The translations under genes were made by a program, and so were the position numbers. Positions 960 to 3,850 of a stretch of DNA of 32,000 bases are shown here, one piece after another. The notes beneath the pieces are model-generated. The model saw only the letters and a program-made list of their open reading frames with translations. It was not told the DNA's origin and made no database searches. Positions within the stretch are counted from its first letter, which is position 1. Each line of letters begins with the position of its first letter. This stretch comes from Pyrinomonadaceae bacterium (GTDB taxonomy: Bacteria; Acidobacteriota; Blastocatellia; Pyrinomonadales; Pyrinomonadaceae): contig DATEPE010000033.1 in assembly GCA_035273385.1 (NCBI GenBank), forward strand, positions 113,887 through 145,886. Direction: 5' to 3'.

Positions 960-1703
960 TTACACCAAGGTACTTGTGTTTCGGTTCTTTAGCTCGATAA
1001 GCGCAATTGGAAGAATTAGCAGAAGTGGGATCAGTAATACGAAGACGGAATGTTCAAGGAATGTTGTGGCCGCGAATTCCTGTCGATAGATAGCGTTCGC
1101 CAGCGGTATTCCCAGAGTCGTCGCGTAATAAACGAAAAGGGGAAGAATGAATTCACTTATTCGAAGGGGACCACCATTTGGCTTGGCAGCCGTTTGATTA
1201 AGAGTTCGCTCGCTCAGCAGAAACAGCAGCAACAGAAACCCGAAATAGATCAGTATCCCTTCAAGGCGGTGAAGTTGATTTCCGCTGAGACCAGCAATAT
1301 CCAATCGACTGTTTTGCAGGTGCAGTGCAGTTGAGATACGAACCGTATTGGCCACAATTGTCATTGCATACGAAATCAGCAAAGCCGCCGGGATTAACTT
1401 CCAGGAGAGTTTTCCTCTCCAAAGCTTCGCGATCGACAGCATCGAGAAGGCTGCGATCATGAAATTAACGCCGGCACACGAACTTGCGATCAGAAAGCTC
1501 CGGTCGCTGCTCATATAGCCGGCGTGCATTTCAAAGTTAAAGGTTCTGCCGCTCACTATTTCAACGAGAAGAGTTGTCGGGGCCAGGATCCAACGCAGCT
1601 CGTTTACACTGGCAGTTGCATAAAAATATTTGAGCGCAAAGGCACCCGAGAGGATGGCGAATAATTTCGCCATTTGGTTGTATCTTGTGTATCTCCCGGT
1701 CAT
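960..1703 (-). CDS. exosortase/archaeosortase-family transpeptidase-like membrane protein (minimal, ~248 aa)
   Basis: This is a polytopic membrane protein with about 7-8 hydrophobic segments. It carries the family signature positions: Cys in 'IASSCAGVNFM', Arg in 'IVANTVRIS' and His in 'NQLHRLEGILIYFG'. The track ORF runs to a TTG at 1838, but its first 45 codons are the translation of the repeat at 1747..1820. I therefore start the gene at ATG 1703 (MTGRYTRY...); an alternative ATG is at 1673. Confidence 0.7.
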   Translation of the reverse strand: MTGRYTRYNQMAKLFAILSGAFALKYFYATASVNELRWILAPTTLLVEIVSGRTFNFEMHAGYMSSDRSFLIASSCAGVNFMIAAFSMLSIAKLWRGKLSWKLIPAALLISYAMTIVANTVRISTALHLQNSRLDIAGLSGNQLHRLEGILIYFGFLLLLFLLSERTLNQTAAKPNGGPLRISEFILPLFVYYATTLGIPLANAIYRQEFAATTFLEHSVFVLLIPLLLILPIALIELKNRNTSTLV

Positions 1704-1746
1704 TCGGATTCCGCGTTCAATCCTTGCGAGTAGTCGATTACCTTGT

Positions 1747-1820
1747 TTCGTGTTAATTCGGGGATCCACTTTAACTACACCTAAAAAATTCGATCCACGA
1801 AATACATAACCAACACGAAA
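1747..1820 (+). repeat. REP-like palindromic element, degenerate copy (TTCGTG-hexamer family)
   Basis: The left arm is 'ttcgtgttaattcggggatcc'. The loop ends in an A6 run. The right arm is 'ttcgatccacgaaatacataaccaacacgaaa'. It is homologous to the copies at 4000..4071 and 14670..14750. It lies in the gap between the VIT-vWA gene and the exosortase gene. Confidence 0.7.
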
Positions 1821-1834
1821 GTGACTCCCAGCGC

Positions 1835-3850
1835 TCAAACGGTCAACGTTGATCTTCGTCTGCGGCTACGCCAGAACGTCAACAGAGCCATCAACAACAC
1901 CACACTGATCAACCAAACAAGTTCCGGCTCGGTACCGTTCTCCGTGTCTCCGCCCACTGCGAGGTCGGTGACACCCAGTGGTAACGGCTGCGGCTGTCTT
2001 ACGTCTTGCGCTGAGCCCAGCGGGTTACGTACTTCCTCCAGTACCGCGATAAACGATGTGTATTGAGTTAACAGGCTGTACTTCAAACCTAAAGCCGTGA
2101 TCTCTTTAACCCGATCATCACCAATGTCCCTCGAGCCGTAATCTGATAACTCTGCAATTCGTGAACGGGCCCATAGGAAGCGCAATGCGCGATTCGACTC
2201 GTCAGGCTGCGCTGAGGTCACGTCGAAATGGGCCAGATAATCTCCGCGCCCTGACTTGCCGTGTAACTCGAAGGTCCCGGTAACTGGTCCACGCCACTTG
2301 CCGAAAAGAATCACCGGCCGTTGCGCGAGCAGATCGGGGAAGTGGGCCGGGTGGACATCGTAAATATCAAACCCAACGGCGCGTATCTTGATGTCTGTCA
2401 GCACCGGCGTTTGTATGTACTCCCTAAATTTCATCGCTATCGACGCAGCCTCTTCCGGCTTGGTGACGATGAATGGTTCACCCATGCCGGCCTTGGCTAC
2501 ACCTTCAATCAAGTAGCGATTCACCGACGAACCTATTCCAAATGAAAAGACATTACACTTATCGAGATTCTGACGGATGTACTCGAACACGTCGCTTTCC
2601 GCGGAGATGAAACCGTCGGTCACGAGTACGACGCTTCGCGAGATGTTTTCGTCGCGCGGAATGCCCATCGCCTGCTGTAGCGCCGCCAGCAACTCGGTGC
2701 CCCCGCCGCCACGCTGTTCGTCGATCAAACGAGTCGCTACCTCAATGTTTTCCTGGCTTGCCTGCAAAGACCTGGGCGCGAGCACCGACGAATCGCCGGC
2801 AAACAAGACCACATTGAACAAATCTGTCGGCCGCAGTTGTCCAATCAAATCACGTAGAAGTTGTTTCGACGTGTCGAGCGGAAAGCCTGACATCGAACCG
2901 GAAATATCAACTATGAAGATGTACTCGCGCGGCGGAATATCTTCGCTGGCAACTCGCTGCGGTGGTTGGGCCATGTAGAGGAAGAAATTTTCGTCTTGTC
3001 CCTGAAACAGCAGGAGGCCGGACGTGACCTGATTTCCCGCCAGCCGGTATCGCAAAATAAAATCTCGGTTACCCTGAAATGCGTCGGGTTCATCAAGTGT
3101 GACGTCCGCGACCGTCGACCCCTGCCACAAGGGAGATACTTTGTGTGATGGACTGCTCAAGTCCTGGATGGGCATGCCGGCTGACAATCGCGCCGCAATG
3201 TGCAGTGTGCTCGTGGATTTCTTGCCCATAGGCAAGTAAGGACTCTTCACCCATTGATCTTCTTTCGACGCTGTCGATTCTTTCTCCGACGAATACCGTG
3301 GTCCAACAACAGTCGGGAAGACGACTTCGTAGACGCCATCCGTGGGTACTAGTAATTCGGTGTATCGCAATTCAATTTCAACCTGGTCCTGGGGCATGAT
3401 GTTGGCCAGGCTCATGGAAAAAACATTTGGTCTGTCCTGCTCGAGTAGGGAAGCGCTCTTGCCTTCCTTCTTCGCTTGCTCAAACTCCTGCTTTGCTGCT
3501 TCTCGTTCCTTGATTCTGGCGACTACTACCTGGTCGCGAATACGCATGCGCATCGCGTAGACGGCCGCGCGCGTCGACGCCGGAAAGACATAGGACGCAT
3601 TGATTGGACGCGAACCTTCGTTCCGATAGATTTGCACCACTTTCACATCGGCGATCACGCCGGACACGGCTATCTCAACTCGAGTGTCTTTGAGCGGCAG
3701 GTGATCTACGTTGGGATCTCCCTGGACAAAGAAGTATGGCGCCAGTGTCTTGTCCTCAGGTGCTTGGGCCGCTGTTAGAGTCGAAAAGGAAGTGATCGTA
3801 AACAGGACCAGAAAAACATTTCGCAAGTTGTGGATTACCACGGTGTTCAT
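1835..3850 (-). CDS. secreted VIT + von Willebrand factor A domain protein with C-terminal exosortase-type sorting signal
   Basis: The track ORF starts with TTG at 3871. ATG 3850 has GGAG about 10 nt upstream and gives the signal peptide [30 protein letters not shown]. The N-terminus is VIT-like ('[29 protein letters not shown]...YVFPAS'). The vWA domain has the MIDAS motif '[11 protein letters not shown]' and 'VVLVTDG'. '[10 protein letters not shown]' is typical of bacterial VIT-vWA proteins. Confidence 0.85.
   Translation of the reverse strand: [671 protein letters not shown]
1838..1936 (-). other. C-terminal tripartite sorting signal of the VIT-vWA protein (GTEPE / TM helix / RSRRRR)
   Basis: The last 33 aa are [33 protein letters not shown]. 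This is a short Pro/Glu motif, one hydrophobic helix and an Arg cluster, which is the PEP-CTERM-class layout with a different signature motif. Confidence 0.6.

What the first reader, a model, noticed from the sequence alone, without database searches (positions are those of the whole stretch)
960..3850. One-enzyme, one-cargo exosortase module: VIT-vWA protein with a non-canonical 'TEPE' C-terminal signal next to a minimal exosortase
Seen in the sequence: the secreted VIT-vWA protein ends in ...[39 protein letters not shown]. That is a short Pro/Glu motif, a single hydrophobic helix and an Arg cluster, which is the PEP-CTERM-class layout. The motif is TEPE(L) rather than VPEP. The next gene on the same strand, after a 131-nt gap, encodes a ~248-aa polytopic membrane protein with exosortase-type Cys/Arg/His signatures (SSCAGV, ANTVRI, LHRLEG). 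The window contains no EPS or glycosyltransferase genes and no other protein with such a tail. Established knowledge: exosortases (EpsH/XrtA and relatives, Haft et al.) typically serve many PEP-CTERM proteins beside polysaccharide loci. VIT-vWA proteins with a C-terminal anchor signal are known as the dedicated substrate of an LPXTG-type sortase in marine proteobacteria. Inference: here the same cargo architecture is coupled to an unrelated sorting-enzyme class. This may be an uncharacterised dedicated surface-anchoring system.
Basis: partly seen in the sequence, partly recalled or inferred. Interest (0 to 1): 0.72.

Follow-up and report, generated by a model that had tools for sequence, protein, structure and literature searches.

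The report
Dedicated exosortase K with VIT-vWA cargo
A soil acidobacterium carries a conserved two-gene module: a secreted adhesin-like VIT-vWA protein with a C-terminal sorting tail, followed by the small membrane protease (exosortase K family) predicted to cut that tail. The enzyme family and the idea were already known, so this is a new cargo and tail variant, not a new kind of system.

Summary
The cargo (1835..3850, 671 aa) has a signal peptide, VIT and vWA domains, a complete MIDAS motif, and the tail [28 protein letters not shown]. After 131 nt comes a 247-aa polytopic protein (960..1703). It scores 115 bits against NCBIfam TIGR04287 "exosortase K" (cutoff 55), and NCBI already names it so in Pyrinomonadaceae MAGs.

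The pairing is not chance. In 79 of 80 related genome loci, all Blastocatellia or other Acidobacteriota, a VIT-vWA gene lies directly upstream on the same strand. Nothing else is conserved around the pair. The tail logo is G-S-E-P-E-L-[VI]-W-L, with E-P in 80 of 80, then 17 residues, then Arg/Lys. All 16 such C-terminal tails found in a metagenome scan sit on VIT-vWA proteins.

XrtK relatives at 30-34% identity, from Binatia, Desulfobacterales and Pseudomonadota MAGs, show the same pairing. Their tails read VPEPE[LM], and a two-component system usually follows. Cys, Arg and His are invariant in the enzyme.

The "new system" reading is overstated. The enzyme family is named, and VIT-vWA proteins are already known to swap LPXTG, GlyGly-CTERM and PEP-CTERM signals (Haft & Varghese 2011). 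What is unannotated is the cargo and tail type. Verdict: a new variant of a known kind, of moderate interest.

The parts
1835..3850 (-). Cargo gene: secreted VIT-vWA protein, 671 aa from Met8. The mechanical ORF extends to a TTG at 3871.
   Evidence: N-terminal consensus of orthologues. Orthologues of 668-680 aa. TIGR03788 408.8 bits over profile positions 2-623/629.
3761..3850 (-). Predicted Sec signal peptide [30 protein letters not shown], just before PEDK.
   Evidence: Read from the sequence. The cleavage site is inferred from the A-Q-A pattern; no predictor was run.
3362..3694 (-). VIT domain (ORF residues 60-170).
   Evidence: PF08487 117.2 bits, profile positions 1-111/111.
2450..2920 (-). 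von Willebrand factor A domain (ORF residues 318-474), with MIDAS D-I-S-G-S at 2894..2908.
   Evidence: PF13768 71.3 bits and PF00092 45.1 bits. DxSxS found. D, S, S, T and D are invariant in 20 orthologues. PDB sequence hits to PARP4 and ITIH4/ITIH1.
1910..1936 (-). Sorting motif G-T-E-P-E-L-V-W-L (family consensus G-S-E-P-E-L-[VI]-W-L).
   Evidence: Logo from 80 tails: G 80, S 69/T 5, E 80, P 80, E 78, L 76, W 77, L 77.
1871..1921 (-). Tail transmembrane helix [17 protein letters not shown].
   Evidence: Hydropathy 2.54. Exactly 17 residues between E-P-E and the first basic residue in 75/80 tails.
1853..1870 (-). Basic cluster RSRRRR (cytoplasmic stop-transfer), followed by STLTV and the stop codon.
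   Evidence: In 79 of the 80 tails, 3-6 of the first 8 residues from the first basic residue onward are Arg/Lys.
1704..1834 (-). 131-nt intergenic spacer with no terminator-like site on the minus strand.
   Evidence: In homologous loci the two genes lie from overlapping (-6 nt) to about 500 nt apart.
960..1703 (-). Exosortase K-family gene, 247 aa, polytopic membrane protein.
   Evidence: TIGR04287 115.1 bits vs cutoff 55. TIGR04178 30.3 vs 23. PF09721 33.8 vs 25.7. 100% identical to a protein NCBI names 'exosortase K [Pyrinomonadaceae bacterium]'. AF2 model pLDDT 92.3.
1476..1478 (-). Codon of the candidate catalytic Cys76 (SSCAGV). This is C77 in A1/A2 numbering.
   Evidence: Invariant in 22 sequences and in 40 sequences at 30-90% identity.
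1338..1340 (-). Codon of Arg122 (ANTVRI). This is R123 in A1/A2 numbering.
   Evidence: Invariant.
1269..1271 (-). Codon of His145 (LHRLEG). This is H146 in A1/A2 numbering.
   Evidence: Invariant.
960..1184 (-). C-terminal extension of about 75 aa (two helices) beyond the region matched by TIGR04287 and PF09721. It has invariant Pro, Tyr, Pro and His and a nearly invariant Glu (E-H).
   Evidence: HMM matches end near residue 172. Invariant P189, Y193, P201, H219 and nearly invariant E218 in A2 numbering. Helices 183-208 and 213-247 in the model.

Best explanation
This is a dedicated sorting-enzyme/substrate pair of the exosortase class.

Proposed mechanism, with the basis of each step:
- Export: the VIT-vWA protein is exported by Sec. 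A signal peptide is present; export itself is inferred.
- Tethering: the protein stays tethered in the inner membrane by its C-terminal helix. The Arg cluster would sit in the cytoplasm and the G-[ST]-E-P-E-L-[VI]-W-L motif at the periplasmic face. This topology is inferred.
- Recognition and cleavage: the XrtK-family exosortase encoded 131 nt downstream has Cys76, Arg122 and His145 at the periplasm-facing ends of its helices, by the positive-inside rule (inferred). It recognises the motif and cleaves the tail through a Cys acyl-enzyme. This is inferred by analogy with the sortase and exosortase model of Haft et al. 2006.
- Fate of the product: the mature MIDAS-bearing protein is either released or transferred to an envelope acceptor. 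No data here decide between these.

The system is self-contained and independent of EPS genes. The only conserved parts are the two genes. In this lineage (Blastocatellia) the first Pro of the ancestral V-P-E-P-E signal is replaced by Ser/Thr.
For: Enzyme identity:
- TIGR04287 115.1 vs cutoff 55 bits. The exosortase/archaeosortase signature TIGR04178 also passes, as does PF09721.
- Cys, Arg and His are invariant across 40 sequences down to 30% identity.
- The AF2 model is a confident helical membrane fold (pLDDT 92.3).

Pairing:
- 79 of 80 species-level genome loci have a VIT-vWA homologue (63-88% identity) directly upstream on the same strand. The one exception has no upstream DNA.
- Unbiased clustering finds no third conserved gene.
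- 15 of 15 metagenome tails with downstream DNA are followed by XrtK.
- 8 of 8 XrtK relatives at 30-34% identity, from other phyla, have VIT(-vWA) upstream.

Tail as a recognition signal:
- E-P is present in 80 of 80 tails, with near-invariant G, S, E, L, W and L around it. Helix length is fixed at 17 residues in 75 of 80, while the helix sequence varies.
- The sister clade carries VPEPE[LM] in the same register.

Single cargo type:
- All 16 C-terminal tripartite instances of the motif found in metagenomes are on VIT-vWA proteins.
- No other such tail occurs in the window.

Precedent:
- Dedicated systems are typically encoded by adjacent genes (PMC3237569; bioRxiv 10.1101/2023.06.07.544157).
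Against: - No experiment or structure shows cleavage.
- No exosortase has a solved structure for comparison.
- The tail fails every curated sorting-signal model: TIGR02595 10.8 vs 16 bits, and TIGR04286 12.6 vs 150 bits.
- Whole genomes could not be scanned. Other substrates elsewhere in the genome are excluded only indirectly.
- I could not compare with bona fide Bacteroidota XrtK sequences. 'XrtK' membership therefore rests on the HMM cutoff alone.
- In 3 loci the cargo is split or frameshifted (L040, L124, L125). This could be decay or assembly error.
Confidence: 0.8

Rival explanations
1. The tail is only a C-terminal membrane anchor (a tail-anchored periplasmic protein). The neighbouring exosortase homologue does something else, or processes other PEP-CTERM proteins encoded elsewhere. 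Adjacency would then reflect co-regulation only.
For: No curated sorting-domain HMM recognises the tail. Genome-wide substrate counts could not be made.
Against: - A plain anchor does not need an invariant G-S-E-P-E-L-x-W-L box with a fixed 17-residue spacing.
- The pairing survives from 88% down to about 30% enzyme identity across phyla, while all other neighbours change.
- The motif register equals VPEP in the sister clade.
Confidence: 0.07
2. XrtK here serves many substrates, as XrtA does. The VIT-vWA protein is merely the one encoded beside it.
For: Classical exosortases are many-to-one (PMC1569441). Only 32 kb of this genome was visible.
Against: - Haft & Varghese report that in many-to-one rhombosortase systems the targets are not encoded next to the enzyme, whereas single-target systems are adjacent.
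- All 16 C-terminal instances of the motif in the metagenome scan were on VIT-vWA proteins. That scan required the full nine-residue motif, so tails with a looser motif would have been missed.
Confidence: 0.1
3. The pair is a member of the marine proteobacterial sortase / sortase-target system and has simply been mis-scored.
For: The cargo aligns end to end with TIGR03788 (408.8 bits, profile positions 2-623/629).
Against: The score is below the 551.65 cutoff. No LPXTG is present. The neighbour is an exosortase, not a sortase.
Confidence: 0.01

Closest known systems
Exosortase K (XrtK, TIGR04287) with its MSEP-CTERM cargo (TIGR04286). From my memory of the TIGRFAMs/Haft 2012 descriptions, this is a one-enzyme/one-cargo pair of Bacteroidetes. 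The paper itself could not be read.
   Same: - The enzyme passes the XrtK model (115 vs 55 bits).
- Enzyme and cargo are adjacent, one to one.
- The motif core S-E-P is shared (MSEP vs GSEPE).
- The last ~70 residues of the cargo weakly resemble the C-terminal end of TIGR04286 in 7 of 20 orthologues (best E 0.011).
   Different: - The cargo fails TIGR04286 (12.6 vs 150 bits). It is 671 aa against a 920-position profile, and only its extreme C-terminus aligns.
- The lineage is Acidobacteriota, plus Binatia, Desulfobacterales and Pseudomonadota MAGs for the sister clade.
- The enzyme carries a conserved ~75-aa C-terminal extension outside the 163-position model.
- Whether Bacteroidota cargo contains a cryptic VIT/vWA body was not testable here.
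Marine proteobacterial dedicated sortase (TIGR03784) and its target (TIGR03788)
   Same: The cargo has the same body: full-length homology (409 bits), VIT + vWA, a C-terminal tripartite signal, and a single target beside its enzyme.
   Different: The sorting enzyme is of an unrelated class, an exosortase rather than a sortase. There is no LPXTG. The score is below the equivalog cutoff.
VIT/vWA 'vault-protein homologue' family with swapped sorting signals (Haft & Varghese 2011, PMC3237569, Fig. 3C)
   Same: The paper already shows members of this family ending in GlyGly-CTERM, LPXTG or PEP-CTERM. The PEP-CTERM example is from Verrucomicrobium spinosum, with an exosortase as its cognate enzyme.
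   Different: The passages retrieved from that paper do not mention XrtK, a dedicated adjacent exosortase, the SEPELVWL variant, or the Acidobacteria distribution.
PEP-CTERM / XrtA (EpsH) system
   Same: - Tripartite tail of motif, TM helix and basic cluster.
- A polytopic Cys/Arg/His enzyme.
- The sister-clade tails read VPEPE.
- The proposed cleavage occurs at the periplasmic membrane face (PMC1569441).
   Different: - One cargo instead of dozens.
- No EPS locus.
- The tail scores below TIGR02595 (10.8 vs 16 bits).
- The enzyme scores 24.8 vs 208 bits on XrtA.
Eukaryotic inter-alpha-trypsin inhibitor heavy chains and PARP4 (VIT-vWA proteins)
   Same: Sequence-detectable homology of the VIT-vWA body: PARP4 E 6e-31, ITIH4 1e-17, ITIH1 3e-12. 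The MIDAS motif is shared. From established knowledge, ITIH precursors also lose a C-terminal propeptide, and the new C-terminus is esterified to a glycosaminoglycan.
   Different: No evidence that the bacterial protein is transferred to a glycan. The processing enzyme is unrelated.
XrtN system VIT domain-containing protein. This is a RefSeq/NCBIfam name recalled from memory and was not verified here.
   Same: It would be another exosortase subfamily associated with a VIT-domain protein.
   Different: No such model appeared among the hits of the cargo, even at E <= 10. This cargo is therefore not a member. The comparison was otherwise untested.

Membership tests
Exosortase/archaeosortase superfamily (TIGR04178, PF09721) | Score at or above the curated cutoff of the signature models | tested here: met
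   TIGR04178 30.3 vs 23 bits. PF09721 33.8 vs 25.7 bits.
Exosortase/archaeosortase superfamily (TIGR04178, PF09721) | Invariant Cys, Arg and His in a family alignment | tested here: met
   C77, R123 and H146 (alignment numbering; protein numbering is one lower) are invariant in 22 sequences and in 40 sequences at 30-90% identity.
Exosortase/archaeosortase superfamily (TIGR04178, PF09721) | Polytopic integral membrane protein | tested here: met
   The AF2 model is nearly all helix, pLDDT 92.3. Hydrophobic segments found. That the triad faces the periplasm is inferred from the positive-inside rule and was not measured.
Exosortase K (TIGR04287) | Score at or above the curated cutoff (55 bits), and the best-scoring exosortase subfamily model | tested here: met
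   115.1 bits. The next subfamily model, XrtA, scores 24.8 vs a cutoff of 208. NCBI and JGI name the homologues 'exosortase K'.
Exosortase K (TIGR04287) | Encoded next to a single dedicated cargo | tested here: met
   79/80 loci, 15/15, 8/8.
Exosortase K (TIGR04287) | Clusters phylogenetically with the Bacteroidota XrtK seed sequences | not testable with these tools
   No Bacteroidota XrtK sequence could be retrieved. The top 150 representatives and the 10 that were scanned score 105-142 bits.
MSEP-CTERM protein (TIGR04286) | Full-length score at or above 150 bits | tested here: not met
   12.6 bits, E 0.023. Only residues 591-663 align, to profile positions 843-911/920. 7 of 20 orthologues give such a weak hit.
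PEP-CTERM sorting domain (TIGR02595) | Domain score at or above 16 bits | tested here: not met
   10.8 bits for the window tail. Sister-clade VPEPE tails score 10-13 bits.
PEP-CTERM sorting domain (TIGR02595) | Tripartite architecture (short motif, TM helix, basic cluster) at the extreme C-terminus of a protein that has a signal peptide | tested here: met
PEP-CTERM sorting domain (TIGR02595) | Pro-Glu-Pro signature | tested here: inconclusive
   E-P is invariant. The first Pro is Ser/Thr in Blastocatellia but Pro in the sister clade, in the same register.
Marine proteobacterial sortase target (TIGR03788) | Score at or above 551.65 bits | tested here: not met
   408.8 bits. Orthologues score 409-442 bits.
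Marine proteobacterial sortase target (TIGR03788) | LPXTG signal and an adjacent sortase | tested here: not met
   No LP.T[GAS] anywhere in the protein. The neighbour is an exosortase.
VIT-vWA (ITIH/PARP4-like) proteins | VIT domain followed by a vWA domain with MIDAS | tested here: met
   PF08487 117 bits and PF13768 71 bits. DISGS found. MIDAS residues are invariant. PDB hits to PARP4 and ITIH.

The most novel reading that the evidence does not exclude
The XrtK/VIT-vWA cassette is a phylum-spanning, EPS-independent, one-substrate exosortase system. In the sister clade it is linked to its own two-component regulator. In this reading the enzyme does not merely release the ITIH-like protein. 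It transfers the protein's new C-terminus covalently onto an envelope glycan or lipid, a bacterial counterpart of ITIH heavy-chain esterification to glycosaminoglycan. With a single substrate and a near-invariant nine-residue motif, it would be the simplest system in which to determine the exosortase cleavage site and acceptor. Both have remained unknown since the PEP-CTERM system was predicted in 2006.
Probability: 0.15. Interest if true: 0.65.

Novelty: new variant of a known kind. Interest (0 to 1): 0.36.

Why it matters
- Annotation: pipelines name the enzyme ("exosortase K") but call its partner only "VIT and VWA domain-containing protein" or "Ca-activated chloride channel family protein". 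The substrate relationship and the G-S-E-P-E-L-[VI]-W-L sorting signal are therefore invisible in about 180 matching stretches of the genome collection (one genome per species) and in many metagenome contigs.
- Curation: defining this tail, and the VPEPE form in the sister clade, would allow a curated cargo/signal model. It would also extend the XrtK system beyond the Bacteroidetes, where I recall it being described.
- Evolution: it adds another case to the pattern that one ancient VIT-vWA surface protein is handed to whichever C-terminal sorting enzyme a lineage has: sortase, rhombosortase or exosortase.
- Experiment: a 1:1 exosortase/substrate pair with a rigid motif is a convenient model for the still-unknown exosortase chemistry.
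- Limit: it does not overturn anything known.

Tried and rejected
- Haft et al. 2012 (the archaeosortase/exosortase paper that, as I recall, named XrtK) is not held. Full-text searches for 'exosortase K', 'MSEP-CTERM' and 'XrtK' returned nothing. What I say about the Bacteroidetes XrtK/MSEP-CTERM pair therefore rests on memory plus the HMM results.
- Reaching Bacteroidota XrtK and its cargo failed. The genome scan returned only Acidobacteriota. The representative search stopped at 147 bits. The third homologue search, seeded with the most XrtK-like distant representative (P0316, 142 bits), led to Binatia, Desulfobacterales and Pseudomonadota instead.
- Plasmid collection: no XrtK homologue.
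- Solved structures: no sequence match and no meaningful fold match (best Foldseek E 0.14, GPCR/rhodopsin noise). The afdb50 library was unavailable.
- Docking the tail into the enzyme was not possible. Only window or database sequences can be submitted, and the model coordinates are not exposed, so Cys-Arg-His distances were not measured.
The extended pattern worked, but 22 of its 38 hits were irrelevant internal matches. Most were LipB-like ORFs with [14 protein letters not shown].
- A conserved third gene (EpsI-like, glycosyltransferase or regulator) in Blastocatellia was rejected. Clustering of all ORFs in 80 loci shows only the pair, plus antisense shadow ORFs.
- The DedA/VTT gene downstream (67..810) is conserved only in the two closest relatives.
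- A terminator between the two genes was rejected: none in the spacer, and counts were at the level of shuffled sequence.

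
Full report
**1. What is in the sequence**

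Both genes are on the minus strand.

Cargo gene:
- The ORF runs 1835..3871(-), 678 aa from a TTG. Orthologue N-termini and lengths (668-680 aa) indicate that translation starts at Met8, position 3850, giving 671 aa.
- The N-terminus [34 protein letters not shown] looks like a Sec signal peptide. This was read from the sequence; no predictor was run.
- Pfam finds VIT (117 bits, full length) and vWA (VWA_3 71 bits).
- D-I-S-G-S and the further MIDAS residues are invariant in 20 orthologues.
- The closest solved relatives by sequence are PARP4 (E 6e-31) and the inter-alpha-trypsin inhibitor heavy chains H4 and H1.

Second gene:
- An ATG at 1703, 131 nt downstream, opens a 247-aa ORF (960..1703) containing SSCAGV, ANTVRI and LHRLEG.
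- My alignments A1 and A2 used window:960-1706, which carries one extra N-terminal codon. Residue numbers from those alignments are therefore one higher than protein numbers: C77/R123/H146 correspond to Cys76/Arg122/His145.

Rest of the window:
- No terminator-like site lies in the spacer.
- The window holds no other tail of this kind.
- It holds no EPS or glycosyltransferase gene. The neighbours are a VTT/DedA protein, YjbR, DinB, an AraC regulator, aconitase, peptide deformylase, an MFS transporter, a large outer-membrane barrel and similar.

**2. Identity of the enzyme**

- The small protein scores 115.1 bits on NCBIfam TIGR04287 'exosortase K' (cutoff 55). It scores 30.3 bits on the exosortase/archaeosortase signature TIGR04178 (cutoff 23). 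On XrtA it scores only 24.8 bits against a cutoff of 208.
- Pfam Exosortase_EpsH also passes.
- A protein 100% identical over 96% of its length is in NCBI as 'exosortase K [Pyrinomonadaceae bacterium]'. Dozens of homologues carry that name in NCBI and JGI. The window therefore comes from a Pyrinomonadaceae (Blastocatellia, Acidobacteriota) MAG.
- Cys, Arg and His are invariant in 22 close relatives and in 40 sequences reaching down to 30% identity.
- An AlphaFold2 model built on the 40-sequence alignment is confident: pLDDT 92.3, pTM 0.88, nearly all helix with a small beta hairpin before the Cys.
- By the positive-inside rule, Cys76, Arg122 and His145 each sit at the periplasm-facing end of a helix. 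This is an inference.
- No solved structure resembles the protein by sequence or by fold.
- One feature is not covered by the family models. About 75 C-terminal residues (two helices) lie beyond the end of the TIGR04287 and PF09721 matches. They contain invariant Pro, Tyr, Pro and His and a nearly invariant Glu, forming an E-H pair.

**3. Is the pairing real?**

Genome scan:
- I scanned one genome per GTDB species with patterns taken from the enzyme alignment. Of 191 stretches that matched a pattern, 180 encoded a relative. The best 80 were all Pyrinomonadaceae, Blastocatellia or other Acidobacteriota MAGs.
- In 79 of these 80 loci a VIT-vWA homologue (63-88% identical to the window's) lies immediately upstream on the same strand. 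The distance runs from a 6-nt overlap to about 500 nt. The one exception (L045) begins inside the exosortase gene and has no upstream DNA.
- All-against-all clustering of every ORF of at least 120 aa in the 80 loci found only two conserved families, the enzyme and the cargo. The other recurrent clusters are antisense shadow ORFs inside those two genes.
- The DedA-like gene downstream in the window is shared only with the two closest relatives.
- This is therefore a two-gene module in otherwise variable surroundings.

**4. The tail**

- I aligned 80 tails on E-P. Position by position the counts are G 80/80, S 69 (T 5, A 3, D 2, N 1), E 80, P 80, E 78, L 76, V 45/I 24, W 77, L 77.
- Exactly 17 residues follow E-P-E before the first basic residue in 75 of 80 tails. 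In 79 of the 80, 3-6 of the first 8 residues from that basic residue onward are Arg or Lys.
- The helix sequence itself varies freely. A near-invariant nine-residue box next to a variable helix is the signature of a recognition site, not of a simple anchor.
- The window's 'TEPE' is the minority spelling of a family 'SEPE'.

**5. Is the tail restricted to this cargo?**

- I scanned the metagenome collection for DNA encoding G-[ST]-E-P-E-[LF]-[VIM]-W-[LF] and obtained 38 matches.
- Sixteen are C-terminal tripartite tails. All 16 are on VIT-vWA homologues. All 15 with DNA downstream are followed by the exosortase.
- The other 22 are internal or incidental matches. Most lie in LipB-like ORFs ([21 protein letters not shown]).
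- This supports a single cargo type. The test has a limit: it required the full motif, and whole genomes could not be scanned.

**6. Beyond Acidobacteria**

- A profile search of 1.84 billion cluster representatives found 1,715 relatives of the enzyme, 362 of them at E <= 1e-30. Ten diverse relatives at 30-38% identity all pass the XrtK model at 105-142 bits.
- I seeded a search with the most XrtK-like of them (P0316). It returned proteins named 'exosortase K' from Candidatus Binatia, Desulfobacterales and Pseudomonadota MAGs.
- All eight contexts examined have a VIT(-vWA) gene directly upstream. In one (L084) a PAP2 phosphatase gene lies between. In two (L124, L125) the cargo is split into two ORFs.
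- In seven of the eight, a response regulator follows the exosortase, OmpR-type where the gene is complete and a truncated receiver-only ORF in L124. A HisKA/HATPase histidine kinase follows (split in L124, separated by an IS110 transposase in L125).
- Their tails read ...S-V-P-E-P-[ED]-[LMI]-helix-basic, i.e. a canonical VPEP, in the same register as G-S-E-P-E-L of Blastocatellia.
- The 'non-canonical' motif of the window is therefore a lineage-specific Pro-to-Ser/Thr derivative of a PEP-CTERM-class signal.
- The cargo is much better conserved between the clades (54-56% identity) than the enzyme (30-34%).

**7. Comparison with known systems**

- *XrtK/MSEP-CTERM.* The enzyme passes the XrtK model. 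The cargo does not pass its cognate cargo model, TIGR04286 (12.6 vs 150 bits). Only the last ~70 residues align, to profile positions 843-911 of 920. Such a weak hit recurs in 7 of 20 orthologues. The motifs share S-E-P. From memory, XrtK/MSEP-CTERM is described as a Bacteroidetes one-to-one pair. I could not read the source paper or obtain those sequences.
- *Marine proteobacterial sortase target.* The cargo aligns end to end with TIGR03788 (408.8 bits) but falls below the cutoff (551.65). It has no LPXTG and no sortase neighbour.
- *Published precedent.* Haft & Varghese 2011 (PMC3237569) show that this 'vault-protein homologue' family carries GlyGly-CTERM, LPXTG or, in Verrucomicrobium spinosum, PEP-CTERM with an exosortase as the cognate enzyme. 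They also define 'dedicated systems' and note that such systems are encoded by adjacent genes. What is not annotated or modelled is this particular pairing and tail.
- *Generic PEP-CTERM model.* The tail scores below TIGR02595, both here (10.8 vs 16 bits) and in the VPEPE clade (10-13 bits).

**8. Mechanism**

- Shown: homology of the enzyme, the invariant triad, the conserved motif, the fixed spacing, and strict synteny.
- Inferred by analogy with sortase and with the exosortase model (PMC1569441): Sec export; retention by the C-terminal helix with the Arg cluster in the cytoplasm; recognition of G-S-E-P-E-L-x-W-L at the periplasmic membrane face; and nucleophilic attack by Cys76, assisted by His145 and Arg122.
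- Unknown: the scissile bond, and whether the acyl-enzyme is resolved by water (release) or by an envelope acceptor (covalent attachment).
- The MIDAS-bearing vWA domain suggests metal-dependent binding as the function of the mature protein.
- One recent preprint reports that a 708-aa VIT-VWA protein of Limnobacter is strongly induced by gamma rays and is protective. This hints that bacterial members of the family may act in envelope stress. It is not the same system.

**9. Verdict**

- I classify the finding as a new variant of a known kind: an XrtK-family dedicated exosortase whose cargo is the VIT-vWA protein rather than a TIGR04286-type protein. Its tail is unmodelled (GSEPELVWL, or VPEPE in the sister clade), and the pair is widespread in soil Acidobacteria and present in other phyla.
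- Interest is moderate (0.36). The finding is useful for annotation and as a simple model for exosortase chemistry, but a specialist would not find it surprising.

Noticed in passing
window 960..1184 (-), residues ~174-247 of the exosortase: A conserved two-helix C-terminal extension lies beyond the end of the TIGR04287 (163 positions) and PF09721 matches. Pro, Tyr, Pro and His are invariant and a Glu is nearly invariant (E-H pair) across 40 sequences down to 30% identity. Its function is unknown. It might contribute to the active site or to acceptor binding.
   Followed up: partly
L081/L082, L084, L123, L124, L125, L126, L127 (downstream of the XrtK gene): In the sister clade (Binatia, Desulfobacterales and Pseudomonadota MAGs) a response regulator follows the exosortase in 7 of 8 contexts, OmpR-type where the gene is complete and a truncated receiver-only ORF in L124. 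A dCache/HAMP histidine kinase follows (split in L124, separated by an IS110 transposase in L125). This gives a four-gene cassette. The pair is absent from the Blastocatellia loci.
   Followed up: partly
L084:1073-1732: A PAP2-family phosphatase gene is inserted between the VIT-vWA cargo and the XrtK gene in one locus. It could hint at a lipid-phosphate acceptor, or it could be incidental.
   Followed up: no
proteins P0317 (585 aa) and P0355 (579 aa): These are XrtK-family proteins with about 340 extra C-terminal residues that match no Pfam family. Their gene context could not be looked up.
   Followed up: partly
L088, L089, L095, L102-L106, L109, L112, L114, L115, L117, L119, L120: The nine-residue tail motif G[ST]EPELVWL also occurs by coincidence near the N-terminus of LipB-like ORFs ([21 protein letters not shown]). 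Motif-only searches for this sorting signal therefore give false positives unless a C-terminal position is required.
   Followed up: yes
alignments A2 and A3: Between the Blastocatellia clade and the VPEPE clade the cargo is 54-56% identical, while the enzyme is only 30-34% identical. The substrate evolves far more slowly than its processing enzyme.
   Followed up: no
L040 (cargo 4000-5922 plus a second piece), L124:1992-3997, L125:1975-3991: The cargo gene is split into two ORFs in three loci. This may be frameshift or pseudogenisation, or it may be assembly error. I did not resolve which.
   Followed up: no
window 67..810 (-): A VTT/DedA-family membrane protein lies directly downstream of the exosortase. 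It ends in a hydrophobic helix plus RKLRKRRSRK and so superficially resembles a sorting tail, but it has no motif. It is conserved next to the pair only in the two closest relatives (L001, L002).
   Followed up: yes
window 25952..29734 (-): A 1,260-aa protein with a CarboxypepD_reg domain and a large outer-membrane beta-barrel (PF25183, 460 bits). This is a typical Acidobacteria TonB-dependent-like transporter and is unrelated to the finding.
   Followed up: no
window 11382..11861 (+): A small glycine-zipper protein whose C-terminus has a hydrophobic stretch followed by RRQR. My tail screen flagged it, but it lacks any PEP/SEP motif.
   Followed up: yes
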